The notes beneath the pieces were generated by a model. That model did not search any database and was not told the DNA's origin. It saw nothing but the letters and a program-made list of their open reading frames with translations. Positions 15,428 to 44,371 of a DNA stretch of 64,000 bases are shown one piece after another (position 1 is the first letter of the stretch; every line of letters begins with the position of its first letter). Source of the DNA: Elainellaceae cyanobacterium (GTDB lineage Bacteria; Cyanobacteriota; Cyanobacteriia; CAKZMO01); assembly GCA_049647405.1 (NCBI GenBank), contig JBARXP010000099.1, positions 669 through 64,668 of the forward strand, in the 5' to 3' direction. The position numbers were made by a program, and so were the translations under genes.

Positions 15428-15562
15428 TGCGAATTGTTCCTATTATGTGATGCTCAGTCGCGAAAGGCTTGAGGTCTGATTAGTTTCGTCAATCAGAACA
15501 TTAGCCCAAAGCACCTAACCCGAAAATGTATGGGGTCAAGTGCTTCGGCTTAGGTGGCTTGG

Positions 15563-18862: not shown

Positions 18863-19257
18863 GCGTCTCCTCAGATGGATCGCCTCTAGGCGTGCCAAAT
18901 ACTACGATACTACTTTTGATATGTCAACTAAAAGTCAAAAATCAGAAAAGATTAGCGTTCTATATCAATAACTTCAGTTTCAGCACAAAGTTAACTTCCT
19001 AAACCGTTGCAGAAAGGGAACTTTCGGCAAACATTACAAATTAATACACTTTGTTTATGAACGATTGATTTTGAAGCTACCTCTTTTGCTATGCGGCGGC
19101 GATCGCCTATAGGAGGGATATGAATATTTAAGCCAGATCATGCACAAGCGTTCTCTACTGGAAAAGGAATAAAGCTAGACCAGGCATTGGTCACCGAAGA
19201 CTTAGTTGGCTACATAGCACCTCATGTTTTGTGAACTCACTCAAGCACTTCACACAC

Positions 19258-28784: not shown

Positions 28785-30671
28785 ATGAGTGATTTTTTTA
28801 AGGGCTTCGAGCAACTTCTAGAACTGGCAAAAACCCTCGAAGAGAAGGCAGAAAAAGGCGAGCTAAAGACTGACGTTCAGTTTCGCTCAAGCCATCTCAG
28901 CAGCATTCCACGTCAGGGCAATCGTTCCTCTAGCAGCAGTAGCGATAACATCGGCACCGAAAAGATTCGTCGCCCCGCAGCCGATCGCCCAAACAATTCG
29001 GCACCGGGTCGTGCAGGCAATGGAGACGACTCTGCCTCAGACGATCCCAATGTCATCATCACGCCCCCCCCTGAAGACGAGGGCGAGCGCCCCTCTCTCA
29101 GCGACGTAGGCGGATTGTCGGAAGTGCTCAATGAGCTGAAGGAGCTAGTCGAAATTCCTCTCAAGCGCCCAGATTTGCTGGCAAAGCTAGGGCTAGAACC
29201 CACCCGAGGCGTCTTACTTGTAGGGCCTCCCGGCACCGGAAAAACCCTCACCGCCCGCGCCCTGGCAGAAGCTCTAGATGTCAGCTACATCGCCATTGTT
29301 GGCCCTGAGGTCATGGGCAAATATTATGGAGAGGCAGAAGGTCGCCTGCGGGGCATCTTTGAAAAAGCGACGAAGGCCGCTCCCTGCCTCGTGTTTATTG
29401 ACGAAATCGACAGCCTCGCCCCCGATCGCAGCAAGGTTGAAGGGGAAGTCGAAAAGCGTCTCGTCGCCCAACTGCTGAGCCTCATGGATGGCTTTGCCGC
29501 GTCGAAAGGGGTGATTGTCGTCGCCGCAACCAACCGTCCGGATCACCTTGATCCAGCCTTGCGCCGTCCCGGACGCTTCGACCGCGAAGTCCACTTCCGC
29601 GTCCCTGACCGAGACGGACGCCTGGAAATTCTCAACATTCTCACCCGCAAGATGCCCCTAGAAGACAGCGTGGAGTTGGGGGCGATCGCCGACCTCTGTC
29701 TAGGACTCGTCGGAGCCGACCTCAAAGCCCTCTGCCAAAAAGCGGCCTACGTTGCGCTTCGTCGCCAAGTGAAATCTTTAGATGAGCCGATTCCCAACAG
29801 TTTGACCATTAGCCAAAACGATTTTCTCCAGGCTATCCGCGAGGTGAAGCCTTCGGCATTGCGTTCTGTAGAAGTCGAAAGTCCGAATGTGACGTGGGAC
29901 GATATCGGCGGTCTTGATAGCGTCAAGCAAACCCTGCAAGAGTCGGTCGAAGGGGCGCTACTCTACCCCGAACTTTACCAGCAGACCAAAGCTCAGGCTC
30001 CGCGCGGCATCTTGCTGTGGGGGCCACCGGGTACGGGCAAAACCCTATTGGCGAAGGCGATCGCCGCCCAAGCCCGCGCCAACTTCATCTCCGTCAGCGG
30101 CCCCGAACTGCTGACTAAATGGGTCGGTGATGCCGAGCAGGCCGTGCGAGAACTGTTTGCCAAAGCGCGGCAGGTGTCGCCCTGCGTCGTGTTTATCGAC
30201 GAAATTGACTCGCTGGCTCCCGCCCGAGGTAAATACAGCGGCGACTCCGGCGTGAGCGATCGCGTCGTTGGGCAACTGCTGACCGAGCTTGACGGACTCA
30301 AGGGCTGCGTTGATGTGCTGCTCGTCGGAGCCACCAATCGCCCTGACGCTCTCGACCCAGCCCTGTTGCGAGCAGGCCGACTCGATCTGCAAATCAAAAT
30401 CGATCTGCCCGATTTGGAAAGCCGCCTCGCCATCCTTCAGGTTCACAACCAAGAGCGGCCTCTGGCTGATGAGATTGATCTGTCAACGTGGGCGACTCAA
30501 ACCGATGGCTGGAACGGAGCCGATCTGACACTGCTCAGCAACCAGGCAGCCCTCGAAGCCGTGCGTCGCTATCGCTCCCAGCCTCTGACCGACCCCAGCC
30601 AGATTCGGATTACGACCAACGATTTTGCGATCGCCCACACGATGCTGCTCAATCAACGCCAAGCACGCTGA
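28785..30671 (+). CDS. Cdc48/VCP-like AAA+ ATPase with two AAA domains
   Basis: Two complete AAA modules, each with Walker A GPPGTGKT, Walker B DEID and second-region-of-homology arginines. The start is set at the MSDFFKGFEQL ATG (28785); the listed ORF extends upstream without conservation. Confidence 0.8.
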   Translation: MSDFFKGFEQLLELAKTLEEKAEKGELKTDVQFRSSHLSSIPRQGNRSSSSSSDNIGTEKIRRPAADRPNNSAPGRAGNGDDSASDDPNVIITPPPEDEGERPSLSDVGGLSEVLNELKELVEIPLKRPDLLAKLGLEPTRGVLLVGPPGTGKTLTARALAEALDVSYIAIVGPEVMGKYYGEAEGRLRGIFEKATKAAPCLVFIDEIDSLAPDRSKVEGEVEKRLVAQLLSLMDGFAASKGVIVVAATNRPDHLDPALRRPGRFDREVHFRVPDRDGRLEILNILTRKMPLEDSVELGAIADLCLGLVGADLKALCQKAAYVALRRQVKSLDEPIPNSLTISQNDFLQAIREVKPSALRSVEVESPNVTWDDIGGLDSVKQTLQESVEGALLYPELYQQTKAQAPRGILLWGPPGTGKTLLAKAIAAQARANFISVSGPELLTKWVGDAEQAVRELFAKARQVSPCVVFIDEIDSLAPARGKYSGDSGVSDRVVGQLLTELDGLKGCVDVLLVGATNRPDALDPALLRAGRLDLQIKIDLPDLESRLAILQVHNQERPLADEIDLSTWATQTDGWNGADLTLLSNQAALEAVRRYRSQPLTDPSQIRITTNDFAIAHTMLLNQRQAR

Positions 30672-30731
30672 AATGGCTATTAGTCGAGTGTAAGGAGTAG
30701 AAATATTGAACCCATTTGGAGAAATAGGATC

Positions 30732-30986
30732 ATGCCTGAACCGTCAGTCGAAGAAGTCAAGAAACAAGCACTTGCAACCCTGATGGCACATTTTGTTCAG
30801 CAAGGTCACCCTGAGCAATACGCTCAGCACATGGCGATGTTGGCAATTTTTCAAACTGACTTGGAATTGCGAAATGCTCAGATGACGCGGTTGCTCGGAT
30901 GGCTAAAACAAGACCATGCCGACATCTATGAACAGGCGGCAGAGTTGGTCGAAGAAGTGCGGCTTGAGTTTGAAACTCGGCTGTAG
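30732..30986 (+). CDS. hypothetical small protein (84 aa)
   Basis: ORF only, with no recognisable motif. It is the first gene of the accessory island. Confidence 0.3.
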   Translation: MPEPSVEEVKKQALATLMAHFVQQGHPEQYAQHMAMLAIFQTDLELRNAQMTRLLGWLKQDHADIYEQAAELVEEVRLEFETRL

Positions 30987-31153
30987 TTTCTGTTAGGAAA
31001 AGGGGCGATACGGGCTACGCCCAGGCAAGCCAACGCTCTTGCCTTGTGGGGAGGGCGATCGCCCATTTATAGAAAAGGGGCGATCGCCCTTCATCAAAAC
31101 TCCAGGACTTCACAGTGTTAGCATCAAGACCAATGAGCATTTAGGTCATCGTA

Positions 31154-31522
31154 GTGACGATCACAAAAGAACAAATGGCTGTCTATCGAGCGTCTGCTCA
31201 GCAACGGCAACGGCAACAGCTAGAGCATTCGCGTCAACGTTATCAATTGGGCATGACCGTTGTTCAACAAGCGACTGAACTGCTCAAACAAGAATTTCGA
31301 GTGAAAAAAGTGGTCTTGTTTGGTTCTATGCGATCGCCCAATAGAGTTCACGAACGCTCTGATGTAGACCTTGCTGTTTGGGGACTTAACCCAAAACACT
31401 ACTATCGGGCCGTAGGCCAACTTCAAGGACTCCATCCTGACATTTCGGTAGATCTCATTGAAGCTGAATCAGCCTCGCCGCAGATGCTGAGAGAGATTGA
31501 GACAATTGGAATTGTGTTATGA
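31154..31522 (+). CDS. minimal nucleotidyltransferase (MNT; type VII antitoxin-like)
   Basis: Contains the GS...DVDL nucleotidyltransferase motif (VVLFGSMRSPNRVHERSDVDLAVWG). It overlaps the downstream HEPN gene by 4 bp (ATGA). Confidence 0.7.
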   Translation: MTITKEQMAVYRASAQQRQRQQLEHSRQRYQLGMTVVQQATELLKQEFRVKKVVLFGSMRSPNRVHERSDVDLAVWGLNPKHYYRAVGQLQGLHPDISVDLIEAESASPQMLREIETIGIVL

Positions 31523-32007
31523 GTCAGAATGCCATTAGTCTTGCTGTTCGCATTCGCGCAGAGTTAGCTGATATTGATCAAGTCGTTGAACGAACGCAGC
31601 GATTGCTAGCAAAAGCAATCGAACGTAATGATGACGACTATTATGATGGTGTTGCCCTTAATCTCCATAGCTTTTACACAGCGACTGAGCGCATTTTAGA
31701 AGAAATTGCCCGAGAAATTGATGCTGCTATCCCTACAGGCCCTGAGTGGCATCGAGATTTGCTATTGCAAATGTCAGCAGAATTTCCAAAGGTTCGCCCG
31801 CCTGTGCTGCAACGAACATCTCGACGTTGTTTAGATGAGTATAGAGGGTTGCGTCATGTGATTCGGAATGTATATACGTTTGACTTGAAGCCGACTCGTT
31901 TACGAGAGTTAGTTAGCATGATGCCCGAATGTCATGCTTCTCTGGTAAAAGACATAACAGATTTTTGCGCCTTCCTCGAAGCTTTAGGGCAATCCGAAAT
32001 ATCGTAA
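31519..32007 (+). CDS. HEPN-domain protein (HepT/HI0074-like toxin partner of the MNT)
   Basis: 162 aa, translationally coupled to the upstream MNT. Contains a R-x4-H-x-I-R-N-x-Y-like HEPN signature (RGLRHVIRNVY). Confidence 0.55.
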   Translation: MSQNAISLAVRIRAELADIDQVVERTQRLLAKAIERNDDDYYDGVALNLHSFYTATERILEEIAREIDAAIPTGPEWHRDLLLQMSAEFPKVRPPVLQRTSRRCLDEYRGLRHVIRNVYTFDLKPTRLRELVSMMPECHASLVKDITDFCAFLEALGQSEIS

Positions 32008-32052
32008 GCGATCGCCTCTTGCTGAGAAGAGGGGCGATCGCTTTTGTTTTGG
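32007..32052 (+). terminator. rho-independent terminator after the MNT-HEPN operon
   Basis: A 13-14 bp near-perfect stem (agcgatcgcctctt / aagaggggcgatcgct) is followed by TTTGTTTTGG. Confidence 0.5.
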
Positions 32053-32161
32053 AGAGAGGGGTTGAATGTAGTCTGTATCGCCTTCTCTGCCAGTCAAATA
32101 AAATGAAGAGGTCTGGCTCAAGATTCAGTTATCTTGATATCAATAACAACCGTTTTGCTAC

Positions 32162-32401
32162 TTGCGGCGTATGAGTACTTTTGAGCAAATCCTGGATGGG
32201 GTAGCTGATTTACCCCTTGATCAGCAAGAACTTCTCATTGAGATCGTGAAGCATCGCACGACTGCTGCACGTCGTCAGGAACTGGCGAAAACCTCTCAAG
32301 AAGCATTAGCTGAATACCGAACAGGACAGCTTCAGCCTCAGACTTCACAAGAGGCGATCGCTGAATTACGGGCATATTTGGAGAGCACTGAAGACGAATG
32401 A
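32162..32401 (+). CDS. putative addiction-module (antitoxin-like) small protein, orphan
   Basis: About 75 aa, helical and acidic at the C-terminus. It resembles small cyanobacterial addiction-module component families. No toxin gene lies adjacent. Confidence 0.3.
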   Translation: MRRMSTFEQILDGVADLPLDQQELLIEIVKHRTTAARRQELAKTSQEALAEYRTGQLQPQTSQEAIAELRAYLESTEDE

Positions 32402-32539
32402 GAAAGCTCGTTCTCACCTCTCGACTCAAGCGATCGCCCTTTTTGTGAAGTGGATAAAGTAACACAATTTAGCTAATTAATTTGTAGAATAAAAGCATTG
32501 ACTAAATGGTATAAATTAATTGAATTTTAAAAATTAATT

Positions 32540-33265
32540 ATGGCAAAAAGAAAACCTAAACCGGGTAAATGCGTACATTGTCTTAAGACATTCGAGAATC
32601 TAACTTGGGATCATGTATTTCCACAAGCTTGGTACCCAACTACAACCAAGCCAGACGAATATAAATGGCAGGTTCCAAGTTGTCAGGATTGTAATAGAGA
32701 GTATGGCAACTTAGAAAATGACTTTCTGACTCGTATATCAATTTTCTTAGAACCCTCTGACTTAGCTTGCGCAGGCATCTTTGAAAAAGGAATGCGAGCG
32801 CTTGACCCTAAATATGCAAAAAACAATAAAGATAAAAAATTTCGAAAAGCTAAAAAAGAGAAAATTCTAAGAGAACTTTGGGTGGGAGAGGAAATTCCTC
32901 AAAAGCATCTTTATCCAAATTTTGGTTTGTCTTCCCACCTCCCTATAGAAGAACAGGTTGCAGTTCCAATCAGATCAGACTCAGTACAGCGTATAGCGGA
33001 AAAAATTGTCCGAGGAATTTTTTACATTGAAGATCATCTCTTGATAGAACCTCCGTATAAGATAGAGAGCTATGTATTGAGTGACAAAGGTTATCAACGA
33101 GTGATAGATGCTGCAAAGAGATTTGGCTCTGTTTATAAAAGGGAACCTGGAATCACAGTATTTCGAGCAGTTGTTCCGGAATGTTCACCTAGCTCACTAT
33201 TTGCTATCGAAATATGGAAGCGATGGAAAGTCTATGCGACTGTTTTAGTTTCTGACGTCACTTAA
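32540..33265 (+). CDS. HNH-endonuclease-domain protein with uncharacterised C-terminal domain
   Basis: The N-terminus reads CVHC...WDHVFP...CQDCN, matching the HNH zinc-finger/His-Asn-His arrangement. The gene sits in a markedly AT-rich patch. Confidence 0.55.
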   Translation: MAKRKPKPGKCVHCLKTFENLTWDHVFPQAWYPTTTKPDEYKWQVPSCQDCNREYGNLENDFLTRISIFLEPSDLACAGIFEKGMRALDPKYAKNNKDKKFRKAKKEKILRELWVGEEIPQKHLYPNFGLSSHLPIEEQVAVPIRSDSVQRIAEKIVRGIFYIEDHLLIEPPYKIESYVLSDKGYQRVIDAAKRFGSVYKREPGITVFRAVVPECSPSSLFAIEIWKRWKVYATVLVSDVT

Positions 33266-33487
33266 TACTACTTTCTTTGGATAGAATTAGCGAGCTTTAT
33301 CTAAAGTTTAACAATGCAAAAGTGGCAAAAATTTAAGAACGATTTATAAACTTTTATCGATTGGAGATGCTTGGAAACTTAAGTGTTAGTTGACGTAGCT
33401 AATTTCTCTTTTTAGTCCATATCAACGAAGGTCTGAGTTGGCAGTTAGGATAGAGCCAGAATTTTGCCGCTAGTACGAGTAAGAAAA

Positions 33488-34330
33488 ATGAGTAGATTTC
33501 TTATAATTGATACGTGCGTGTGGATCGCACTTGCAGGAGAACCCAAGCTTTATAGCCTGATTGAAACTCTAGATGAAGCTCTCCAAACGACTGATTTTAT
33601 CCTAATACTTCCTGAATCGGTCAAGCTTGAATTTGATCGCCACAGAAACACTATAAACTCAACTTGGAAAAATAAGTGTAAAGGATTAATTCGTCAGATT
33701 ATGCAGGTCAAAAACCATTTCCCTAATCATGCACAAGAAATTTCAGTTATTCACAACCTTCTTCAAAATACGTTGGCAGTAAGCGGCGCAAATATTGAGG
33801 ATAATTTGAAATTAGTTGATCAAATTTTCTTGCAAGCTACAGTAATAGACAATTGCTCCGATCAAATGTTTGCAGAAGCTGCTAAGAGAGTTTTTCAACG
33901 CATGCCTCCTGCTCTAAAGCCTGAGGGCAGCAGTATAGGCGATTGTTTACTTTGGCTATCTATATTAGAACTGTTGAAAACCGGAGAAGTATGGTTTTGT
34001 ACAGATAACAAACATGACTTTTCTCGTCGTAATGCTGAAAACTTACCATTTGAAGATCTAGATATGGAGGCTTTCAGTATTAATAAGAAAGGTATGTTTA
34101 ATTACTTTATTGATCCAAATAAGTTCATTAAACAAATCTCTCCTGTTTCTAGAGACTTACCTCGCTATTCAGACTATGTAGAGAAAGATTCATGGATGAA
34201 ACCAATAACTTGTCCTAGTTGCGAAGCAGTAGCAGCCTTTCCACACCTTTACAGCACAGGTTACAGATATATTTGCGCGAATTGTGGAAGTGCTTCATCT
34301 TTTTTACCTGCTGACGATCCACTTTTATAG
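33488..34330 (+). CDS. PIN-like nuclease-fold protein with C-terminal CxxC...CxxC zinc ribbon
   Basis: FLIIDTCVWIAL opens a PIN-like fold, with further acidic positions at IGDCLLW and FCTDNKHDF. The C-terminus carries CPSCE...CANCG. AT-rich. Start set at the MSRFLIID ATG. Confidence 0.5.
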   Translation: MSRFLIIDTCVWIALAGEPKLYSLIETLDEALQTTDFILILPESVKLEFDRHRNTINSTWKNKCKGLIRQIMQVKNHFPNHAQEISVIHNLLQNTLAVSGANIEDNLKLVDQIFLQATVIDNCSDQMFAEAAKRVFQRMPPALKPEGSSIGDCLLWLSILELLKTGEVWFCTDNKHDFSRRNAENLPFEDLDMEAFSINKKGMFNYFIDPNKFIKQISPVSRDLPRYSDYVEKDSWMKPITCPSCEAVAAFPHLYSTGYRYICANCGSASSFLPADDPLL

Positions 34331-34512
34331 ATTCGTAAAGAAGCGCCGATCTTTAAACACTTGGAGCTGATTGTGAACGGGCGATCGTACTCTAGGCTTT
34401 AACTGTGGGAGCGATCGCCATGCTGAACATGAAGGGGCGATCGCGGAAGTGCAATGCTCCAAAAAGGCTGCGGTAGAATTGAGGCGGAACCTGATGATGG
34501 CGACTTACAAAC

Positions 34513-34815
34513 ATGACTGATCATCCCAGTTCATCGACTACATCTCTTGAATTGCTGCTTCATGAAATTGAAGCAACGCCTAGAGAATATTGGGCAGATC
34601 TACTCGATACATTGCGCCAGTTTCGCCAGAACATTCCATCCACCGCTCCACATATTATTGATGCTGAACAAGCTCAGAAAAATCAAGCGGCGATCAACCT
34701 TCTAGACTCTTGGTCGAGTGATGATGAAGATGCCTCTGAACATCAGCAGGCTTGGGATTTCCTGAAGACGGCTCTAGATGAAGATCGACTATCTGATCGT
34801 CCCTTATTTCCATGA
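34513..34815 (+). CDS. VapB-like antitoxin (uncharacterised family)
   Basis: 100-aa acidic protein that overlaps the downstream PIN toxin gene by 4 bp. Confidence 0.4.
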   Translation: MTDHPSSSTTSLELLLHEIEATPREYWADLLDTLRQFRQNIPSTAPHIIDAEQAQKNQAAINLLDSWSSDDEDASEHQQAWDFLKTALDEDRLSDRPLFP

Positions 34816-35264
34816 ATCGTCTAATTTTGCTAGATTCTGGCCCCTTAGGAATGATCACGCACCCCAAAGCCACAGGCATTCCCTTTGATTGTCAGCTCTG
34901 GCTCAAATCTCTTCTACGACGCGGAGAAAAGGTTGCTATCCCTGAAATTTCAGATTACGAAGTTCGCCGTGAACTGCTTCGAGCAGGATTGTTGCGAAGT
35001 TTACGCCGATTGGATGACTTGAAGCAAACGCTCGACTACATCCCAATTCATACAGAGACGATGCTTCTAGCGGCTGAGTTGTGGGCACAAGCGAGAAACC
35101 TTGGGCAGCCTACGGCAGATGCTAAAGCATTAGATGGAGACGTTATTCTGGCCGCTCAAGCCCGACTTCTTGGCAACGAGGGAGCCGAGGTAATTGTGGC
35201 AACAACGAACGTGTCTCATCTATCTCGATTTATTACAGCATTAGATTGGCAATTCATTGAGTAA
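34812..35264 (+). CDS. vapC: PIN-domain toxin (VapC-like)
   Basis: ILLDSGPL N-terminal PIN motif, with conserved acidic residues along 150 aa. Translationally coupled to the upstream small ORF. Confidence 0.7.
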   Translation: MNRLILLDSGPLGMITHPKATGIPFDCQLWLKSLLRRGEKVAIPEISDYEVRRELLRAGLLRSLRRLDDLKQTLDYIPIHTETMLLAAELWAQARNLGQPTADAKALDGDVILAAQARLLGNEGAEVIVATTNVSHLSRFITALDWQFIE

Positions 35265-35447
35265 GATAGAGCGATCGCCTTTTTCCTCCACACAAATAAG
35301 GGCGATCGCCACGCCGATAACAAACGGGCGATCGGTGTGATAGTTTACCAGTGACAACAACGATCCTTTATGCCTAAAAAGCATTCTTTCGAGGAAGGGT
35401 TGATTCGTTAGAATATTGATGCAAGTTTAATCAAAGGTATCCTGTCC

Positions 35448-35693
35448 ATGTTCAGCACAACAGTTACCGACACTGGGCAAATCACCTTACCAGAAGAAAT
35501 TCGGCAGCATCTCAAGCTGACCAGCGGCAGCAGAGTCGAATTCGTGGTTGAAGAAGATGGCCAGGTAAAAATCTTTCCTCTCAATGTTGCTGTAGAAACC
35601 CTGTCAGGCATCTTGCATCGGCCCGCTGCTCAACCCGTTGCGCTCGAAGATATGGAGGCTGCTATTTCTGAGGGAGCCAATGATTGGGCTTGA
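35448..35693 (+). CDS. AbrB/MazE/SpoVT-type antitoxin (VapB-like)
   Basis: The TGQITLPEEIRQHLKLTSGSRVEF sequence is a swapped-hairpin AbrB-like DNA-binding motif. Confidence 0.6.
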   Translation: MFSTTVTDTGQITLPEEIRQHLKLTSGSRVEFVVEEDGQVKIFPLNVAVETLSGILHRPAAQPVALEDMEAAISEGANDWA

Positions 35694-35781
35694 TACCAAT
35701 ATCCTAGTCCGCTACCTGACTCGCGATGATGAGCCTCAATGGCGGCAAGCTACCGACCTGATTCAGCAAAACCAACACTGA
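35680..35781 (+). pseudogene. truncated VapC (PIN) toxin remnant
   Basis: A 33-codon ORF (MIGLDTNILVRYLTRDDEPQWRQATDLIQQNQH*) overlaps the antitoxin stop. It has a PIN N-terminus with a premature stop and no continuation in frame. Confidence 0.45.
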
Positions 35782-36011
35782 GATCGCCAGCTTTGATAGC
35801 AAGCTGAAAGGCGAGAAGAGTTTCCGTTGGCTGGAGTAACCACAGCCAGCTAACCCTTCGTCGGTGCAGACGCAACAGAGATTGTCTTGGGAAAGAAGAA
35901 GCGATCGCCACCGCATCACTTAACCGTTTGCCTTATTGAAAAAATAGCAGGGTGCAGGAGCGATCGCCACGCCACTAAATAAACGGGCGATCGCCTCTCT
36001 AGGGCTTCGCG

Positions 36012-36263
36012 TTACTCAATCTGGACCGTCTTGGTGAGAATGCACATCATCTCGCCAGGGCGATCCGTGGGCATCGGTCGGCTCCACTCATTCGGTTCGG
36101 CATAGCCTCGTTGATGCAGGGACTTGATCACGATCTGAATCGCCTTGGGCGAACCGTAAAGCAGGTGACGCACGGATTCATTGTGCGGACTCGATTGGGG
36201 TCGGGATGGAAAATCGCCACCGGAATCTGTGGACGCAAACGCGCCCGAATTGGGTTGAAACAT
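36012..36263 (-). CDS. hypothetical small protein (83 aa)
   Basis: ORF preceded by a highly structured leader of about 200 nt. The ...GYAEPNEWSRP... segment looks like a conserved cyanobacterial hypothetical family, not identified. Confidence 0.4.
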   Translation of the reverse strand: MFQPNSGAFASTDSGGDFPSRPQSSPHNESVRHLLYGSPKAIQIVIKSLHQRGYAEPNEWSRPMPTDRPGEMMCILTKTVQIE

Positions 36264-36950
36264 GAGGTTCTGGTTCCTTTTTGAAAATAAACAACAGAAG
36301 GAAACCAGAACTCAGTCCCCTGGCTACCCCGCAAATGTGTGTGCAATTCGAGGCAGCCACGGTTTACCATAAACCGTTAGCCCCCCGACTGGCATGAGCA
36401 GTCGCGGTGGGTTAGCCATCTGTGGGTGTGACCGCACTCGCAGATGGTGCCAAGTTCTTGAGTTCTGAACTAAGCCATTCCAAAAAAACAGCTTAATGAA
36501 AAAGGATACTCATACAGGAGTTCTGAGTCAACCGTAGAGGAAGAGAGGATTTAGGAGAGAGGAGTCAGGAGAGAGGAGTCAGGAGAGGGGTGTTATGACG
36601 CACCTCAAACTAAAACATACATCATTTCATAATGTTGCATAGCCTAACAGACCTGAGGCGAGTCATTTGTCGGGATGAGGCTTTGCTTGTATAGATACAG
36701 CATCTGAAAAGCGATAATAAATCACCTCTAAATAGGTTTAACCCAGAAGCAGAAAAATGATTAGACTAAACTATAAGTCACCTGTCTACTTAAATAGAGA
36801 TCTTAGGCGGACGTAATTCTACCTATTCCACTAAAAAAGAGCTTAGGTGGAAAACTTTTCATATAATTTAGAAAATTTTCCCTCTAATCAATCGTTAGGT
36901 GCGCCAACAACGGTCGCACTCTTCTCTAACCTGAACATTGGCTAATTGAA

Positions 36951-38435
36951 GTGACCTGGGCAGATAATCCTCCACCTACAGTACGACTTGGTGAAGTCGC
37001 CGCAATCCATGTCGGTCTACGGATCTCTTCGATCGGGATAGTCATAGAAGAAGGCAGTGGCACTTCTTTCATAACTGGCCGCGATCTATACACCAACCGA
37101 CCGACAGCTGCATCGTTACGACAAGTTCAACTCACAGAAGATGTAGCCACAACGCGGTATCTTACTGTGGGCGACCTCGTTATTGCGACCACCTTCAAAC
37201 ACCCGCGTGTGCAGTCGGTCTCCGAAGAACTCGCTGGCGTCCTCCCTGCTAATACGGTTCTGGCCATCAGGCCGGATCATGCGATTATTGCGGTCGACTT
37301 CCTCGCTGACTATTTGTCGTCAGACACGTTTCTCCGGCACGCGCGCACGGTTTGCTCCACGCTTCATGACGCGATTCGACTGACGGTGACTGACCTAGCC
37401 AACGTTCCGGTTCCGTTATACCCAGTTGATCTACTCAAGGACTTCGATGTCATCCGCGACGAGGAGCAGCACCTTCGTACTCGGGCAGACGAACTGCATC
37501 GAGTCATCGTGTCATTCTTTAACTTTGGCACCGAAGCCGCACTGCGAGAAGCGGTAAACGATGTTCGGTTGCAGACCAACATAGTAGAGCAAAGCCTCCA
37601 GGCAGCGACCGATCCCGACTTTCAGATAAGGACATTCTATCCGTTCCCTATCGCCTATCCCTATCGTCTCACTGACCTCGATATTGAACCGACGAAGACT
37701 CTATATGAATTGCACCGCGTGTCAGAGGCCATCGCCGCGTACATAGCGTCACTATTGTTGGTGCTCCTAGAACCGCTTCCTACCACCATGCAGAAGTACG
37801 TCAAGAGGAGTTTTGGTGGCCACGGAGCAACCTTCGGCAACTGGTACAAGATCATTGTCCAGGGCACGGAATATCTGGACAGCGGGACTTCTGCGCTACA
37901 CAGATCTCTGGCTCACCTCGGGAAGACCGCTTTCTTGCGTCAGGTAAAAGAACTTCTTCAGTACCGCGACGACTTTCATCACCCCTCTGGGACGGGATCT
38001 CTGGTTGGTGCAGCGGCAGTGGCTCGTGAATCCGCTATTCGAAAAACGATGCGTTCAGTAATGTTGGAACTCGCGTTTCTCTGCGAACACCCGCTCTACC
38101 TGCCGATGGACTACGATGTTGTCCGCGCTACTGGCCTGTTTCGAACAGTGGCTTTGAAGTACACCGGTGACCATCCGGGAATGCGGAAGTTCGAGGTCGA
38201 CCTGCATCACGCGGTGACGAAAAATGACCTATGCACAGCAATTGGTAATGGGGACATGTGGCGCAGTCTCTATCCATACTTGTCTGTCGCGCACTGTCCA
38301 GTGTGCGGATCGCGAGAAACGTACTATGTGGACGAATGGCAGCCCGGAAAGGCGGCACGCATTCGGAGTTTCGAGCGTGGGCACGAGCAGATCTCCGACG
38401 AGATCGGTCACGAACTCTCGTTACGCCTCAGATGA
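36951..38435 (+). CDS. stand-alone protein: type I R-M HsdS-like target-recognition domain fused to an uncharacterised C-terminal domain of about 300 aa with a CxxC zinc ribbon
   Basis: The N-terminal 190 aa show the HsdS TRD pattern (LGEVAAI...GDLVIATTFK...VLPANTVLAIRP...TVTDLANVPVPLYPVDLLKDFDVIRDEEQHL...ELHRVI). The C-terminus carries RDDFHHP and HCPVCGS motifs. No hsdM or hsdR lies nearby. Confidence 0.6.
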   Translation: MTWADNPPPTVRLGEVAAIHVGLRISSIGIVIEEGSGTSFITGRDLYTNRPTAASLRQVQLTEDVATTRYLTVGDLVIATTFKHPRVQSVSEELAGVLPANTVLAIRPDHAIIAVDFLADYLSSDTFLRHARTVCSTLHDAIRLTVTDLANVPVPLYPVDLLKDFDVIRDEEQHLRTRADELHRVIVSFFNFGTEAALREAVNDVRLQTNIVEQSLQAATDPDFQIRTFYPFPIAYPYRLTDLDIEPTKTLYELHRVSEAIAAYIASLLLVLLEPLPTTMQKYVKRSFGGHGATFGNWYKIIVQGTEYLDSGTSALHRSLAHLGKTAFLRQVKELLQYRDDFHHPSGTGSLVGAAAVARESAIRKTMRSVMLELAFLCEHPLYLPMDYDVVRATGLFRTVALKYTGDHPGMRKFEVDLHHAVTKNDLCTAIGNGDMWRSLYPYLSVAHCPVCGSRETYYVDEWQPGKAARIRSFERGHEQISDEIGHELSLRLR

Positions 38436-38603
38436 AGGTAAAGCTTTGCTGAGAGGAGTGCGATCGCTCGATCTTGTAAGGTGCATTACCCACTACAACT
38501 TCTCGCAACTCTGCCAAGCAATTCTTGGAAATACGCCAGATCATGGATTTTAAGAAAGTGCGATCGCGCATCTACACCTGCTGCAATATAAAGAACACCG
38601 CGA

Positions 38604-39488
38604 CTAGACATCGCTAATCGAGGTCGTGCTAGATTGCCGCGCTAGCCTGACGAAAACAGCACTGGTGGCAAACATAATCAAGCTATAGATTCCTGCCGGA
38701 ATTGCCATGCTAGGTGTATTGAGAAACGTGGGTGCGCTTGCAACGGCAATAGCCAACGTCCCGTTCTGAATGCCCACTTCTACCGCAATGGCTTTTTTGC
38801 TACGGGTGTCTAACTGAGCCAGAGTGGCGATCGCAAAACCCAGCAGCATCGTGCTGACGTTTAGGGCAAGGGTCACCCATCCCACCTGTAAGAAGAAGCT
38901 GGCGACATTGGCGCGTTCTTTGGCTAACAACCCGACCACAATCAAGCTTAAAAAAGCGATCGATAGCCATTTAACCCCTTTTTCAACCTGAGAGGCAAAC
39001 CGAGGCGCGTAGTGGTGGAGCGCCATGCCTAATGCCACGGGGATCAGGGTAATGACAGCAATTTGAATAACTGTCGTCAAAAACGGCAGTTGGAGGGCAG
39101 CGGCTTCTCCTATAAAGTGCTGCATTGCCAGGTTGACGACCAACGGAATGGTGAACACCGTGATGAGGCTGCTAATCGCGGTCAGCGTAATCGATAGAGC
39201 CACGTTTCCCTGCAATAGATAGGTCATCAGATTGGATGTCGGGCCACCGGGGCAGGCGGCTAAAATCATGACGCCGACCGCCAGCTCTGGAGAAAGCGGA
39301 AAAAGACTCGCGAGCAGGAAGCCAACGGCTGGCAGCATAATCAGCTGAGCAATCAGCCCAAGGGCGACGGCTTTAGGCTCAACCAAGACTCGCTTAAAGT
39401 CATCCGCCGTTAGCCCCAATCCCATGCCCAGCATGATGATAAATAGAGCTAGGGGAAGAAAAACTGCGGTTAAGATGCTCGATTCCAT
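38604..39488 (-). CDS. bile acid:sodium symporter (BASS) family transporter
   Basis: 294 aa with about 9-10 TM helices and a Gly/Pro-rich pattern (ILAACPGGPTSN) typical of the BASS/ACR3 superfamily. Confidence 0.65.
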   Translation of the reverse strand: MESSILTAVFLPLALFIIMLGMGLGLTADDFKRVLVEPKAVALGLIAQLIMLPAVGFLLASLFPLSPELAVGVMILAACPGGPTSNLMTYLLQGNVALSITLTAISSLITVFTIPLVVNLAMQHFIGEAAALQLPFLTTVIQIAVITLIPVALGMALHHYAPRFASQVEKGVKWLSIAFLSLIVVGLLAKERANVASFFLQVGWVTLALNVSTMLLGFAIATLAQLDTRSKKAIAVEVGIQNGTLAIAVASAPTFLNTPSMAIPAGIYSLIMFATSAVFVRLARQSSTTSISDV

Positions 39489-40004
39489 AATTGTCTGGGT
39501 GCTGTGCTACCCGATAGCTGGGGAATATCTTAAGATGCTATCGGTAAAACGCACCATAACCCTAGTGAGCCTTGGCGATCGCTCGTTTCTATCGCTCGTT
39601 TCTTAAGTAGACGCTTCGCGCTGGCATAGCCTGTCTATCTGGCAAACACGTCTCTATCTGGCAAACACGTCGTTCAACAGCGACCCACGGAAGTCACTAT
39701 TTTGGCTGGGTCGATCTGCTGGGTCGATCTAGCCAAACAGGTTAATCGGTCGGCACGATACCCGATCATGCCAACCGATTCAAAATTACTCTGGCGGAGT
39801 CGTTGAATGGCTGGGGTGCCCTGGTAAAAACGGCACGAGACGCGGTTTGCGATGGGTAAAAATTAAACATAAGAATTTAATCAATGGCCTCAAACATATA
39901 TATAGGTGTATTTCGGCTTTAGAGACGCATTTGAGGGGCACCCAAAATGCTGAGGGTTTGCTATCTTCATAAGTGTTTAGACCTCTATAAGTTTCTACAT
40001 CATT

Positions 40005-41167: not shown

Positions 41168-42103
41168 ATGAAACGACGCAACATTGTGATATTGACAGGA
41201 TTGGCGATCGCCTATGCCCTGATTAGCTTCTGGGTTGGGCAACAAGCCTATAGCTGGATGCCGCCTCAGGCGTCTGCCGAAGCGGTGCTGGTCGATCAGC
41301 TGTTTAGCTTTTTAGTGACGATTGGAATGTTCATTTTCCTGGGAGTCACGGGCACGCTGCTGTTTTCGACCCTGTTTCAGAGAGCCGAAAAGTATGACAC
41401 TAGCGATGGCCCCCCGATGGAGGGCTATGTTCCTCTAGAGATCGTCTGGACGGCTATTCCCTTTGCGCTCGTAATCTGGATTGGAGTCTATAGCTTCCAG
41501 ATTTATCAGCAAATGGGCATTCTTGGGCCAATGGATCACCTGTCGATGGGAATGGCCACGGCAGAGGCTGCACCCATGTCTTCAGAGTTAGTGGTGGCAG
41601 AGTCAGTGGCGGCATCAAGCTCTCCCATCCAAGTGCAGGCTCGCCAGTGGGCCTGGGAGTTTTACTATCCGGATCAGGAAGTCGCAAGTACTGAGCTACA
41701 TCTCCCTGTGAACCAACGGGCAAAACTCCGACTCTCTTCAGAAGATGTGTTGCATGGATTCTATGTGCCTGCTTTTCGTGTGAAGCAAGATGTGGTGCCG
41801 GGACGAGACATCAATTTTGAATTTACCCCCATTCGCGAAGGGCGCTATCGGCTGCGAGATTCTGAATACAGCGGCACCTACTTTGCAGCCAATCAAACCA
41901 ACGTAGTCGTGGAGTCGGCAGAAGACTATCAAGAATGGTTGGCGATCGCCGCTGCTCAGCCACCCCAAGCAGCCGAAAACCCTGCCTTCGATGAATTTCA
42001 GCGGGCGGAGGAACACCCCATCAGCCTTGGGTGGGAATCGATCAAGCCAGAACCTGCCCCCATCGTCAATTACGCCAGTTCAGAAAAGGATCTTCATGAG
42101 TAA
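41168..42103 (+). CDS. ctaC: haem-copper oxidase subunit II lacking CuA ligands (ARTO-type CtaCII, quinol-oxidase-like)
   Basis: Carries the subunit II fold motif DVLHGFYVPAFRVKQDVVPGR. The CuA site H-x34-C-x-E-x-C-G-x2-H-x2-M is replaced by ...D-S-E-Y-S-G-T-Y-F-A-A-N, so both Cys, the second His and the Met are lost. Confidence 0.85.
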   Translation: MKRRNIVILTGLAIAYALISFWVGQQAYSWMPPQASAEAVLVDQLFSFLVTIGMFIFLGVTGTLLFSTLFQRAEKYDTSDGPPMEGYVPLEIVWTAIPFALVIWIGVYSFQIYQQMGILGPMDHLSMGMATAEAAPMSSELVVAESVAASSSPIQVQARQWAWEFYYPDQEVASTELHLPVNQRAKLRLSSEDVLHGFYVPAFRVKQDVVPGRDINFEFTPIREGRYRLRDSEYSGTYFAANQTNVVVESAEDYQEWLAIAAAQPPQAAENPAFDEFQRAEEHPISLGWESIKPEPAPIVNYASSEKDLHE

Positions 42104-43769: not shown

Positions 43770-44371
43770 GCACAGCTAATCTCGACCCGACCGTCAATGC
43801 CCACGTGGCTCACGCGGTAGAGCATGAAGAAGAAGACCACCGCATGTTTGGCTTCATTGTCTTCTTGCTGTCGGAAAGCGTGATTTTTCTTAGCTTTTTC
43901 GTTGGCTACATCGTTCTCAAGACAGAGGCGACCCAGTGGCTGCCGACTGGCTTTGAAGGCTTAGAAGTTCGAGAGCCGTTTATCAATACCATCGTGCTGG
44001 TGTCGAGCAGTTTCGTCATCTATTTTGCAGAGCGCTTTTTGCACAAGGAAAACCTCTGGGGCTTCAGAGCGTTTTGGCTGCTAACGATGGCCATGGGGGG
44101 CTTCTTTCTATACGGTCAGGCGGTGGAATGGATGGCCTTGCCTTTTGGCTTTACGGATGGCGTCTTTGGCGGCACTTTCTATTTGCTGACGGGCTTTCAT
44201 GGGCTGCACGTAATGACCGGAGTGCTGATGCAAGGCATTATGCTGGGGCGATCGTTTCTGCCTGGTAACTATGAAGGGGGCGAGTTTGGTGTCGCGTCAA
44301 CCTCCCTTTTCTGGCACTTTGTCGATGTGATTTGGATTGTCTTGTTCTTGCTGATTTATATCTGGCGCTGA
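43766..44371 (+). CDS. ctaE: haem-copper oxidase subunit III
   Basis: 201 aa, CoxIII-like (FFVGYIV..., GFHGLHV). It overlaps the ctaD stop by 4 bp. Confidence 0.9.
   Translation: MSTANLDPTVNAHVAHAVEHEEEDHRMFGFIVFLLSESVIFLSFFVGYIVLKTEATQWLPTGFEGLEVREPFINTIVLVSSSFVIYFAERFLHKENLWGFRAFWLLTMAMGGFFLYGQAVEWMALPFGFTDGVFGGTFYLLTGFHGLHVMTGVLMQGIMLGRSFLPGNYEGGEFGVASTSLFWHFVDVIWIVLFLLIYIWR

What the first reader, a model, noticed from the sequence alone, without database searches (positions are those of the whole stretch)
30700..38600. Roughly 8-kb accessory island dense in toxin-antitoxin/defence modules between the Cdc48-like ATPase and the BASS transporter
Within 8 kb the window holds:
- an MNT-HEPN pair;
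- an orphan antitoxin-like gene;
- an HNH nuclease and a PIN-like/Zn-ribbon protein, both AT-rich;
- an intact VapBC pair;
- an AbrB-type VapB with a truncated VapC remnant;
- a small structured-leader gene;
- the HsdS-like fusion gene.

Base composition shifts and extended double-HIP1 repeats punctuate the modules. This looks like a defence/TA island assembled by serial insertions and decay.
Basis: partly seen in the sequence, partly recalled or inferred. Interest (0 to 1): 0.6.

Follow-up and report, generated by a model that had tools for sequence, protein, structure and literature searches.

The report
Mosaic toxin-antitoxin gene cluster, HIP1-punctuated
This 7.6-kb stretch of a filamentous cyanobacterium is a strain-variable patchwork of small toxin-antitoxin and nuclease genes, some visibly decayed; such clusters are ordinary, but here the seams seen against relatives mostly fall on the cyanobacterial HIP1 palindrome.

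Summary
Window 30987-38603 contains:
- an MNT/HepT pair;
- a small antitoxin-like ORF;
- an AT-rich HNH gene and an AT-rich PIN_12/Zn-ribbon gene;
- an antitoxin/PIN pair;
- an AbrB antitoxin with a broken vapC;
- an 83-aa gene with a conserved structured leader;
- an orphan 494-aa protein (HsdS-type recognition domain, HEPN-like domain, Cys/His beta domain).

The 84-aa ORF at 30732-30986 is not accessory. It follows the AAA ATPase in about 45 of 80 cyanobacterial loci.

A close relative (L100) shares MNT-HepT and AbrB-VapC-83aa at 89-94% nucleotide identity. It carries different cargo between them (a TIR gene), different flanks and an intact vapC. The window's vapC lost 225 bp internally. Three block edges, and the edge against a second relative, lie on HIP1 (GCGATCGC) sites. 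Island spacers hold 6.6 HIP1 per kb against 1.1 elsewhere.

No integrase, transposase, tRNA, attC site or complete PADLOC system is present. BASS and the ATPase are adjacent in no relative, so the region is a synteny breakpoint, not a clean insertion.

Verdict: an ordinary TA-rich variable cluster, a new member of a known kind. HIP1-linked cassette exchange is suggestive only.

The parts
30732..30986 (+). 84-aa ORF. It is the conserved partner of the upstream 2xAAA ATPase, so it is core flank and not part of the variable cluster.
   Evidence: tblastn finds it directly after the ATPase in about 45 of 80 loci. No Pfam, NCBIfam or PADLOC hit.
31005..31090 (.). Left seam. Homology with the 94% relative L001 ends at a degenerate HIP1 (about 31005-31012). 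A 17-nt-arm HIP1 hairpin lies at 31052-31090. Homology with L100 starts at 31077.
   Evidence: Hairpin -33.2 kcal/mol, z -7.1.
31154..31522 (+). MntA-like minimal nucleotidyltransferase (antitoxin of an MNT/HEPN pair).
   Evidence: Polbeta E 5.7e-11; NCBIfam MntA 37.8 bits, below the 60-bit equivalog cut-off; PADLOC PDC-S09 E 1.5e-9. The block is 89.3% nt identical in L100.
31519..32007 (+). HepT-like HEPN protein (toxin of the pair). Overlaps the MNT gene by 4 nt.
   Evidence: HepT-like_2 E 3.2e-32, full-length match.
32006..32052 (+). HIP1-HIP1 hairpin followed by a T-run, an intrinsic-terminator-like site. The right edge of the MNT-HEPN block lies exactly after the second HIP1 (32041).
   Evidence: -26.7 kcal/mol, z -4.7.
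32162..32401 (+). 79-aa ORF, antitoxin-like by inference only.
   Evidence: No hit in Pfam, NCBIfam, PADLOC, PHROGs or PDB. One 36% tblastn match on a Nostoc plasmid, with no toxin beside it.
32398..32448 (+). 16-codon ORF (MRKLVLTSRLKRSPFL*) starting in an ATGA overlap with the 79-aa ORF and ending at a HIP1 where the AT-rich block begins. Possible stub of a lost toxin gene (unverified).
   Evidence: Translation. Searches for related N-termini found nothing usable.
32540..33265 (+). Stand-alone HNH-motif protein, 241 aa, AT-rich.
   Evidence: HNH_5 E 3e-4; PHROG HNH E 1.6e-4; PADLOC PDC-M01B E 9e-6 on the motif only. GC 0.384. A cyanobacterial contig, L095, shares only this gene (78.7% nt over 32524-33248) and has other neighbours.
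33464..34330 (+). PIN_12 (DUF4935) protein with a C-terminal CxxC...CxxC zinc-ribbon-like tail, AT-rich.
   Evidence: PIN_12 E 6.6e-15. GC 0.374. 22 relatives; the three that carry an organism name are cyanobacterial. Not found next to the HNH homologues.
34381..34444 (.). Spacer with a HIP1-like site plus a HIP1-N18-HIP1 element. It is the left copy of the 33-nt imperfect direct repeat flanking the next cassette.
   Evidence: (D3, D6).
34513..35264 (+). Antitoxin (100 aa) plus PIN toxin (150 aa) pair with a 4-nt overlap. Apparently intact.
   Evidence: PIN E 9e-4. Homologous overlapping pairs occur on Pseudanabaena and Nostoc plasmids; the Pseudanabaena toxin passes Pfam PIN (27.7 bits) and its partner matches the 100-aa protein (E 2e-8).
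35271..35335 (.). Three HIP1 or HIP1-like sites, including the right copy of the 33-nt repeat. Homology with L100 resumes at 35327, on the third site.
   Evidence: -33.4 kcal/mol, z -4.7.
35448..35693 (+). AbrB/MazE-type antitoxin (VapB-like).
   Evidence: MazE_antitoxin E 8.4e-11; TIGR01439 E 6.7e-11. The block is 94% nt identical in L100.
35680..35838 (+). Broken vapC. The N-terminal 33 codons (35680-35781) end in a stop created at the deletion joint. C-terminal codons follow in another frame (35783-35838). 225 bp are missing.
   Evidence: L100 12997-13221 is absent from the window, with a CCTG/ACTG microhomology at the joint. The L100 gene is an intact 129-aa PIN, E 1.3e-12.
35956..35997 (.). 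HIP1-N19-HIP1 hairpin between vapC and the convergent 83-aa gene. Conserved in L100.
36012..36263 (-). 83-aa protein of unknown function, from a cyanobacterial family seen in several genomic contexts.
   Evidence: No family hit. Copies at 90% identity or more sit in other contexts.
36264..36533 (-). Conserved, structured 5' leader of the 83-aa gene (about 270-290 nt), including a hairpin just upstream of the start codon.
   Evidence: Alignment. RNAalifold gives 74 pairs, 13 with compensatory changes. nhmmer finds it only beside homologues of the gene. No Rfam match at E <= 1.
36566..36950 (.). AT-rich, ORF-free spacer specific to the window. Homology with L100 ends at 36565, in a purine-rich 14-nt repeat.
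   Evidence: (D8). No relic of an N-terminal methylase or nuclease domain.
36951..38435 (+). Orphan 494-aa protein: one HsdS-type target-recognition domain (about 1-155), long helices, a HEPN-like helical domain (about 222-379), and a Cys/His-bearing beta domain (about 382-482).
38604..39488 (-). BASS/SBF transporter, the right flank. In the 89-93% relatives checked at DNA level it is the only conserved piece hereabouts.
   Evidence: SBF E 1.4e-46. Nucleotide homology is restricted to 38635-39500. Neighbours differ in every relative looked up.

Best explanation
Window 30987-38603 is a strain-variable, mosaic cluster of independent small modules. It sits at a synteny breakpoint between a conserved ATPase/84-aa unit and a BASS-DUF2231-ctaCDE block.

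The modules.
- An MNT/HepT pair. From the published HepT/MntA systems, the likely mechanism is a HEPN RNase toxin held inactive by its cognate nucleotidyltransferase. This is inferred, not tested.
- An antitoxin/PIN pair. The inferred mechanism is a PIN RNase neutralised by its upstream partner.
- An AbrB antitoxin left alone after an internal deletion of its vapC.
- A possible second orphan antitoxin.
- Two compositionally foreign stand-alone nuclease genes: HNH, and PIN_12 with a Zn ribbon.
- An 83-aa gene with a structured leader.
- An orphan recognition-domain/HEPN-like protein with no methylase or nuclease partner in 64 kb.

The modules are not one machine. Each has its own distribution.

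Shown.
- The modules are exchanged or lost block by block between close relatives.
- The five multi-HIP1 spacers each fold as a HIP1-N17-23-HIP1 hairpin. They follow five + strand units (the 84-aa ORF, HepT, PIN_12, the 150-aa PIN, the vapC remnant). The 79-aa ORF, the HNH gene and the 494-aa gene have no such hairpin after them.
- Four block edges fall on HIP1 or HIP1-like sites.

Inferred.
- The blocks are shuffled by recombination at or near these HIP1-rich spacers, probably after natural transformation.
- The hairpins double as transcript ends. Only one of them has a T-run.
For: Gene content.

Mosaic structure against L100.
- Blocks 31077-32041 (89.3%), 35327-35780 (94.1%) and 35776-36565 (89.5%) are shared.
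- 3.3 kb of window cargo faces 1.66 kb of unrelated cargo in L100, which includes a TIR gene (E 6e-25).
- The flanks are unrelated: katG/pentapeptide in L100 against ATPase/84-aa here.

Third arrangement. In L001, the sequence after the 84-aa ORF matches the L100 56-aa-gene region in inverted orientation.

HNH gene. It is shared alone with L095, where it is again AT-rich (0.381 against 0.538 for the rest of the contig).

Decay. A 225-bp vapC deletion with microhomology at the joint.

Composition.

HIP1.
- Spacer density 6.6/kb against 1.1/kb elsewhere. Five of six close HIP1 pairs are in the island (Fisher P 0.002).
- Five hairpins of -19 to -33 kcal/mol.
- Junction sequences.

No tRNA or Rfam family in the window. 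No attC pattern.

Literature. TA clusters and stand-alone antitoxins are known in Synechocystis (PMC4963859). HIP1 raises recombination-dependent transformation in a Chi-like way (bioRxiv 10.1101/2024.09.10.611283).
Against: - Only three informative relatives exist, and all are metagenomic contigs. L001 ends 229 bp into the variable region.
- The HIP1/breakpoint coincidence rests on 3-4 independent events and was noticed after the fact. With about 12% of island spacer positions lying within 4 nt of a HIP1-like site, P is about 0.005. The same test on the other loci held shows no enrichment (8 observed against 6.0 expected, P 0.26).
- The edges of the HNH gene, the right edge of the 83-aa block (36565) and the BASS edges are not at HIP1.
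- No toxin, antitoxin or nuclease activity has been tested.
- The HepT protein has YRGLRHVIRNVY where the Rx4-6H motif would be expected, not the canonical spacing.
- PADLOC recognises no complete defence system.
Confidence: 0.75

Rival explanations
1. The region is one integrated mobile element (a remnant of a prophage, ICE or transposon) that brought all the genes in together.
For: It is accessory and partly AT-rich. Relatives carry IS256-type and DDE transposases and an integrase fragment beside BASS.
Against: - The window region has no integrase, transposase, tRNA target or terminal repeats.
- PHROG hits are limited to an HNH motif and one unknown family. There is no viral-contig match.
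- Composition differs between blocks.
- L100 shares only some blocks, and in other flanks.
Confidence: 0.07
2. The region is an integron-like cassette array (a CALIN). Co-oriented promoterless cassettes are separated by imperfect inverted repeats that an integrase recombines.
For: Nine of the eleven ORFs, remnants included, lie on the + strand with no intervening minus-strand gene. Five spacers hold an inverted-repeat hairpin. TA cassettes are typical of chromosomal integrons (established knowledge).
Against: - No RYYYAAC...GTTRRRY attC-type pair is present (0 found, 1.5 expected in shuffles).
- No tyrosine recombinase turned up among the region's ORFs or the window proteins scanned against Pfam.
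- The repeats are the genome-wide HIP1 octamer, not an attC family.
- One hairpin is simply a terminator conserved inside a block.
Confidence: 0.04
3. The genes form one cooperating multi-gene anti-phage system, for example with the recognition-domain/HEPN protein as sensor and the HNH and PIN proteins as effectors.
For: Nucleases and a DNA-recognition domain lie clustered. PADLOC gives weak candidate hits (PDC-S09, PDC-M01B, Specificity_I).
Against: - The components do not co-occur. Homologues of HNH, of the 83-aa gene, of MNT/HEPN and of the PIN pair all sit in other neighbourhoods.
- L100 lacks HNH, PIN_12, the PIN pair and the 494-aa gene.
- One toxin gene is broken.
Confidence: 0.06
4. 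The region is ordinary core DNA, and the apparent variability is an artefact of fragmented metagenome assemblies.
For: All comparators are MAG or metagenome contigs. Several contigs break inside the region (L001, L081, L082, L104).
Against: L100 is a 43.6-kb contig that spans its version of the cluster without a break and shows clean block edges. The window itself is a continuous 64-kb stretch. Contig breaks at repeats are expected for HIP1-rich variable DNA.
Confidence: 0.03

Closest known systems
Chromosomal and plasmid clusters of type II TA loci in cyanobacteria (Synechocystis PCC 6803: 69 loci, clusters on pSYSA and in variable regions; PMC4963859)
   Same: Several small TA pairs and stand-alone antitoxins lie side by side in strain-variable DNA. 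PIN and HEPN/MNT types dominate. Loci are missing from close relatives.
   Different: Here the seams against relatives are resolved to the nucleotide and mostly fall on HIP1 sites. The cluster also holds stand-alone HNH and PIN_12 genes and an orphan recognition-domain/HEPN-like protein. No transposase or reverse transcriptase borders it.
[not shown]
   Same: An MNT gene directly upstream of a HEPN gene and overlapping it. Family-level Pfam matches (Polbeta, HepT-like_2).
   Different: The NCBIfam MntA equivalog score is below its cut-off (37.8 against 60 bits). The HEPN protein belongs to HepT-like_2 and lacks a canonically spaced Rx4-6H motif. No activity data exist.
VapBC type II TA modules
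   Same: A small antitoxin gene overlaps a downstream PIN gene (34513-35264). A second pair has an AbrB-type antitoxin.
   Different: The first toxin scores below the Pfam cut-off on its own, and its antitoxin has no family. The second toxin is inactivated by a 225-bp deletion.
Defence islands in the sense of Makarova and colleagues (recalled from memory, not read here)
   Same: Nucleases, TA modules and an R-M-type domain are clustered in variable DNA. A relative carries a TIR gene in the same slot.
   Different: PADLOC detects no complete recognised defence system. The cluster is small (7.6 kb), and defence activity is unproven.
Integron cassette arrays and CALINs
   Same: Co-oriented small cassettes are separated by imperfect inverted repeats. 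TA cargo.
   Different: No attC consensus and no integrase. The repeats are HIP1 palindromes, which occur genome-wide.
HEPN domains linked to R-M systems (PrrC-like logic; Anantharaman et al. 2013, PMC3710099)
   Same: The 494-aa protein joins an R-M recognition domain to a HEPN-like fold. Its relatives carry type I methylase or HsdR N-terminal domains.
   Different: That survey stated that R-M-linked HEPN domains fuse to nucleases, helicases and ATPases but not to methylases. Relatives here are HsdM-methylase/TRD/HEPN-like fusions. The window copy has no enzymatic head at all. The family consensus at the motif is K-N-D-F-K-H rather than Rx4H.

Membership tests
HepT/MntA (HEPN/MNT) toxin-antitoxin | Adjacent, co-oriented MNT and HEPN genes, usually overlapping | tested here: met
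   31154-31522 and 31519-32007 overlap by 4 nt. Polbeta E 5.7e-11; HepT-like_2 E 3.2e-32.
HepT/MntA (HEPN/MNT) toxin-antitoxin | MNT catalytic GSx(9-10)DxD motif | tested here: met
   The sequence reads LFGSMRSPNRVHERSDVDLAV. The motif definition is from established knowledge.
HepT/MntA (HEPN/MNT) toxin-antitoxin | HEPN Rx4-6H RNase motif | tested here: inconclusive
   The sequence reads YRGLRHVIRNVY. This gives R-x3-H and RH..RN, not the canonical spacing.
HepT/MntA (HEPN/MNT) toxin-antitoxin | NCBIfam MntA equivalog score | tested here: not met
   37.8 bits against a cut-off of 60.
HepT/MntA (HEPN/MNT) toxin-antitoxin | Toxicity of HEPN and neutralisation by MNT-catalysed nucleotidylylation | not testable with these tools
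   Needs expression and mass-spectrometry assays.
VapBC type II TA (34513-35264) | PIN-domain toxin | tested here: inconclusive
   Own Pfam score is 20.2 bits, below the 23.6 cut-off. A 55%-identical plasmid homologue scores 27.7 bits. D8, DxxILAAQA and TTNxxHL motifs are visible in the sequence. The single-sequence AF2 model is unusable (pLDDT 37.5).
VapBC type II TA (34513-35264) | Small upstream antitoxin gene in one operon | tested here: met
   4-nt ATGA overlap. The same arrangement occurs on Pseudanabaena and Nostoc plasmids, and the partner is homologous (E 2e-8).
VapBC type II TA (35448-35838) | Intact PIN toxin | tested here: not met
   225 bp are deleted relative to the intact 129-aa gene of L100. 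A stop codon sits at the joint.
Known anti-phage defence systems (PADLOC-DB 2.0) | A complete set of component genes of a described system | tested here: not met
   Only PDC-S09 (MNT), weak PDC-M01B (HNH motif) and Specificity_I (orphan) were hit. The window proteins scanned include no HsdM or HsdR.
Integron / CALIN | attC sites (R'' RYYYAAC ... R' GTTRRRY) between cassettes | tested here: not met
   0 matches in the island against 1.5 expected in shuffles.
Integron / CALIN | IntI tyrosine recombinase nearby | tested here: not met
   No recombinase was seen among the region's ORFs or among the window proteins scanned against Pfam. Not every ORF of the window was scanned.
Type I R-M specificity subunit (HsdS), for the 494-aa protein | Two target-recognition domains separated by conserved helical regions | tested here: not met
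   One TRD only (residues about 1-155), followed by helices and other domains.
Type I R-M specificity subunit (HsdS), for the 494-aa protein | Adjacent hsdM and hsdR genes | tested here: not met
   None was found in the window. No relic of a methylase lies upstream.
HEPN superfamily, for the central domain of the 494-aa protein | Four-helix up-down HEPN fold | tested here: met
   [not shown]
HEPN superfamily, for the central domain of the 494-aa protein | Conserved Rx4-6H motif | tested here: inconclusive
   The window protein has R339-DDFH-H344. H344 is invariant across 50 relatives, but position 339 is mostly K (consensus KNDFKH).

The most novel reading that the evidence does not exclude
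The HIP1-N17-23-HIP1 hairpins that follow several of the modules are the exchange points of an integrase-free cassette system. HIP1-stimulated (Chi-like, transformation-linked) recombination would swap toxin-antitoxin and defence cassettes between related cyanobacteria. The paired HIP1 sites in the spacers would be the visible seams of that process. If so, this would be natural-population evidence for a recombination function of HIP1, which is still an open question. A separate candidate novelty is the roughly 270-nt leader of the 83-aa gene, which may be an undescribed cis-regulatory RNA.
Probability: 0.18. Interest if true: 0.7.

Novelty: new member of a known kind. Interest (0 to 1): 0.35.

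Why it matters
In itself the cluster is one more TA-rich variable region of a cyanobacterial genome.

Its value is as a worked example. Three related genomes show module-by-module replacement with nucleotide-level seams, a dated decay event (the vapC deletion), and a striking excess of HIP1 hairpins exactly in the spacers.

HIP1 has lacked an agreed function for 30 years. Recent work points to a role in transformation and recombination. Natural breakpoints on HIP1 would be the genomic footprint of that role, and a survey of complete genomes could test this directly.

Two by-products deserve their own look:
- a protein family that joins an R-M recognition domain to a HEPN-like domain, often together with a methylase;
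- a conserved structured leader with no Rfam family.

Tried and rejected
80 ATPase loci share only the ATPase and the 84-aa ORF with the window, apart from L001. BASS orthologues share only BASS, by tblastn and blastn for L085-L090 and by gene content for the more distant ones. No empty site is available, so the test is uninformative.
- Exact-sequence look-up of the NCBI 422-aa version of the 494-aa protein: not on record.
- Toxin-stub hypothesis for MRKLVLTSRLKRSPFL. A short-peptide tblastn gave only noise. No ORF with a similar N-terminus exists in 1.5 Mb of held loci. The Nostoc homologue of the 79-aa ORF has no toxin beside it. The hypothesis is left as unverified inference.
- HNH plus PIN_12 as a conserved two-gene system: rejected. 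HNH homologues have no PIN_12 neighbour. The AT-rich partner gene in L095 is unrelated to PIN_12.
- Viral origin: no viral-contig relative of the HNH gene.
- Plasmid DNA matches for the MNT-HEPN block: none. HNH protein against plasmids: none.
- PDB sequence searches for the 150-aa, 79-aa and 83-aa proteins: nothing at E <= 1.
- Single-sequence AF2 model of the 150-aa protein: pLDDT 37.5, discarded.
- The afdb50 fold library was not available.
- HIP1-free stretches as a marker of foreign DNA: rejected, because rpoB/C1/C2 and ctaCDE are also HIP1-free.
- General test of HIP1 at homology ends across all held loci. The overall excess (20 observed against 7.3 expected) comes almost entirely from the island comparisons. 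Other loci give 8 against 6.0, P 0.26.
- The 494-aa gene as a recently truncated methylase fusion: no relic lies upstream, and stand-alone forms of about 495 aa recur.

Full report
**What is there.**

The window comes from a MAG contig annotated at NCBI as Elainellaceae cyanobacterium (locus tags WBA57_05910 to WBA57_05965).

Between the 2xAAA ATPase (28785-30671) and the BASS transporter (38604-39488, minus strand), I confirm the following features.

- **84-aa ORF, 30732-30986.** No family hit.
- **MNT, 31154-31522.** Polbeta E 5.7e-11.
- **HepT-like HEPN, 31519-32007.** HepT-like_2 E 3.2e-32. Overlaps the MNT gene by 4 nt.
- **79-aa ORF, 32162-32401.** No hit in any library.
- **HNH-motif protein, 32540-33265.** HNH_5 E 3e-4, sub-threshold.
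- **PIN_12 protein, 33464-34330.** E 6.6e-15. Carries a CxxC...CxxC tail.
- **100-aa plus 150-aa pair, 34513-35264.** The genes overlap. PIN E 9e-4 for the 150-aa protein.
- **AbrB/MazE antitoxin, 35448-35693.** E 8e-11. Followed by a 33-codon PIN stub at 35680-35781.
- **83-aa gene, 36012-36263, minus strand.**
- **ORF-free, AT-rich spacer.**
- **494-aa gene, 36951-38435.**

The window has no tRNA gene and no Rfam family.

**Composition and HIP1.**

- The HNH and PIN_12 genes have GC 0.384 and 0.374 and GC3 0.29. The mean for 31 reference genes of the window is 0.519 +/- 0.035, giving z of about -4.
- MNT, HEPN and the PIN pair are mildly low in GC3.
- The 84-aa ORF, AbrB and the 83-aa gene look like core genes.
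- The 494-aa gene has normal GC but low codon adaptation (z -2.2).
- HIP1 occurs 107 times in the window against 1.7 expected.
- Island spacers carry 14 HIP1 in 2.1 kb, or 6.6/kb. Other intergenic DNA has 1.1/kb and coding DNA 1.56/kb.
- Five of the six HIP1 pairs spaced 35 nt or less lie in island spacers (Fisher P 0.002).
- Each of the five folds as a hairpin of -19 to -33 kcal/mol (z -2.3 to -7.1). Together they follow the 84-aa ORF, HepT, PIN_12, the 150-aa PIN and the vapC remnant. Only the one after HepT has a T-run, at 32006-32052.
- Long HIP1-free stretches are not informative here. The largest ones are rpoB/rpoC1/rpoC2 and ctaCDE.

**Left boundary.**

The 84-aa ORF follows the ATPase in about 45 of 80 cyanobacterial loci, so it belongs to the core.

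The closest genome, L001, has an ATPase 94% identical at the protein level and shares the upstream synteny. Its homology with the window stops about 25 nt after the 84-aa stop codon. At that point L001 has a HIP1 and the window has a degenerate copy.

**Right boundary and synteny.**

BASS orthologues at 93, 89, 85 and 82% identity have different neighbours on both sides in every relative looked up. These neighbours include IS256-type transposases, a CN-hydrolase, NACHT/WD40 genes and an integrase fragment.

For the 89-93% orthologues, nucleotide homology with the window is confined to the BASS ORF.

The ATPase and BASS are never adjacent. The region is therefore a synteny breakpoint, and the 'empty site' test cannot be done.

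**The decisive comparator.**

Cluster look-up led to L100, a 43.6-kb contig from an Elkhorn Slough mat metagenome. blastn and the junction sequences show three shared blocks.

| Block | Window | L100 | Identity | Content |
|---|---|---|---|---|
| A | 31077-32041 | 9924-10886 | 89.3% | MNT + HepT |
| B | 35327-35780 | 12543-12996 | 94.1% | AbrB + start of vapC |
| C | 35776-36565 | 13222-14007 | 89.5% | end of vapC, 83-aa gene, about 300 nt of its leader |

- Between A and B the window has 3.3 kb: the 79-aa ORF, HNH, PIN_12 and the PIN pair.
- L100 has 1.66 kb of unrelated DNA there: a 56-aa gene, a TIR-domain gene (TIR_2 E 6e-25; PADLOC PDC-S66, ThsB-like) and a 134-aa gene.
- To the left of A, L100 has katG and a pentapeptide gene instead of the ATPase and the 84-aa ORF. 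L104 and L105 share this left flank and the start of block A, then end inside the HEPN gene.
- To the right of C, L100 has unrelated genes instead of the 494-aa gene.
- The 229-nt tail of L001 after the 84-aa ORF matches the L100 56-aa-gene region in inverted orientation (86% over 136 nt). This is a third arrangement.

**Seams.**

- Block A starts exactly at GGGGCGATCGCCC.
- Block A ends directly after the second HIP1 of the terminator hairpin.
- Block B starts at GGCGATCGG.
- The L001 break is at a HIP1.
- The PIN-pair cassette is flanked by 33-nt imperfect direct repeats of the form HIP1-N17-HIP1 (34411-34443 and 35302-35334, 79% identical). A third copy follows the AbrB/vapC block.

About 12% of island spacer positions lie within 4 nt of a HIP1-like site. 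With that background, four of seven edges at HIP1 gives P of about 0.005. The pattern was seen post hoc and rests on few events.

A blind test over all held loci gave 20 observed against 7.3 expected. Outside the island-related loci it gave only 8 against 6.0 (P 0.26).

The edges of the HNH gene, position 36565 and the BASS edges are not at HIP1.

**Decay.**

L100 has an intact 129-aa VapC (PIN E 1.3e-12). The window lacks L100 12997-13221, which is 225 bp. The joint shows CCTG/ACTG microhomology, creates a TGA stop codon and abuts a one-mismatch HIP1. The C-terminal codons survive out of frame.

The 79-aa ORF ends in an ATGA overlap with a 16-codon ORF, MRKLVLTSRLKRSPFL*. That ORF stops at a HIP1 where the AT-rich block begins. 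From memory, this resembles the N-terminus of RelE/ParE-type toxins. I could not verify this.

**Independence of the modules.**

- HNH: a cyanobacterial contig, L095, shares only this gene (78.7% nt). There too it is AT-rich and sits beside an unrelated AT-rich gene. Non-cyanobacterial relatives are 42-47% identical. PIN_12 is never adjacent.
- PIN_12: 22 relatives. The three that carry an organism name are cyanobacterial.
- PIN pair: the same overlapping two-gene unit occurs on Pseudanabaena and Nostoc plasmids. The Pseudanabaena toxin passes Pfam PIN, and its antitoxin is homologous.
- 83-aa gene: near-identical copies lie next to a tRNA synthetase gene, or next to another MNT/HepT pair with Uma2.

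**The 494-aa protein.**

- NCBI calls a 422-aa version. Homologues and the model support the longer GTG start.
- The word-index search found 5 relatives. The exhaustive search found 564.
- Most relatives are 750-985 aa, with the homologous part at the C-terminus. Their N-terminal heads are HsdM_N + N6_Mtase or HSDR_N. Stand-alone forms of about 495 aa also recur.
- AF2 on a 50-sequence alignment gave pLDDT 93.4.
- H344 is invariant. The motif is R339-x4-H344 in the window protein but KNDFKH in the family consensus.
- GDHPG, CxxC and SFERGH are conserved in the beta domain.
- No methylase relic lies upstream, and no hsdM or hsdR turned up in the window.
- Anantharaman et al. (PMC3710099) stated that R-M-linked HEPN domains do not fuse to methylases. 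If the fold assignment holds, this family is an exception.

**The leader of the 83-aa gene.**

- About 270-290 nt upstream of the gene are conserved, even in L095, where the protein is only 40% identical.
- RNAalifold predicts 74 pairs, 13 with compensatory changes. One helix has five.
- nhmmer finds the leader only next to homologues of the gene.
- Rfam has no match at E <= 1.

**Comparison with what is known.**

Clusters of TA loci, stand-alone antitoxins and strain-specific TA content are documented for Synechocystis (PMC4963859).

The function of HIP1 is unsettled. Recent work shows homology- and methylation-dependent stimulation of transformation, 'reminiscent of Chi' (bioRxiv 10.1101/2024.09.10.611283). 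Other work reports a phylogenetic link to DNA-uptake machinery (bioRxiv 10.64898/2026.06.24.733823).

The region is not an integron. It has no attC consensus and no integrase was found.

PADLOC recognises no complete system.

**Verdict.**

The region is accessory, mosaic and decaying. It is not shown to be a defence island, and it is not a simple insertion between two conserved neighbours.

It is a new member of a known kind, and interest is modest. The HIP1 seams, the recognition-domain/HEPN-like family and the unclassified leader RNA are the parts worth following.

Noticed in passing
window 30732-30986: An 84-aa ORF with no known family lies directly downstream of the 2xAAA (Cdc48/FtsH-like) ATPase in about 45 of 80 cyanobacterial loci. 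This looks like a conserved two-gene unit whose small partner is uncharacterised.
   Followed up: partly
window 36264-36533 (minus strand); also L100 13710-13975, L107 3730-3995, L095 1398-1638: A conserved 5' leader of about 270 nt precedes the 83-aa gene. It has predicted helices supported by compensatory changes and a hairpin just upstream of the start codon. No Rfam family matches even at E <= 1, so it is a candidate new cis-regulatory RNA.
   Followed up: partly
window 36951-38435 and relatives P0006-P0154: A protein family of 564 detectable members joins an HsdS-type recognition domain to a HEPN-like domain and a Cys/His beta domain. It is usually fused behind a type I methylase or an HsdR N-terminal nuclease domain. 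Methylase-HEPN fusions were reported as absent in the 2013 HEPN survey.
   Followed up: partly
window 9390-18898 and 41168-44371: The longest HIP1-free stretches of the window (2-4.4 kb) are rpoC2/rpoC1/rpoB and ctaCDE. Highly conserved core genes can therefore lack HIP1 entirely in a genome that averages one copy per 600 bp.
   Followed up: partly
window 49135-57078: A NACHT-domain protein (930 aa, with an FGE-sulfatase-like domain), a TPR-CHAT protein (1140 aa) and a TPR/DUF928 protein lie side by side. This is an NLR/caspase-like conflict-system neighbourhood about 10 kb from the cluster.
   Followed up: no
window 35776-35787: The right end of the 225-bp vapC deletion abuts a one-mismatch HIP1 (GAGATCGC). 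As recalled from the literature (not checked here), HIP1-bounded deletions have been reported in Synechococcus.
   Followed up: no
L100 11427-12237: In the relative, the variable slot holds a 93-aa TIR-domain ORF followed by a 134-aa ORF with no family. This may be a split or truncated TIR effector.
   Followed up: no
L085 5349-9799; L089 439-1224: In the 93% relatives, BASS is bordered by several IS256-type (Transposase_mut) genes. This points to recent rearrangement on that side in those genomes.
   Followed up: no
window 36542-36583: Three tandem 14-nt purine-rich units (AGAGAGGAGTCAGG) mark the point where homology with L100 ends. A read-assembly contig of the same organism (L081) also breaks nearby, at 36452.
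   Followed up: no
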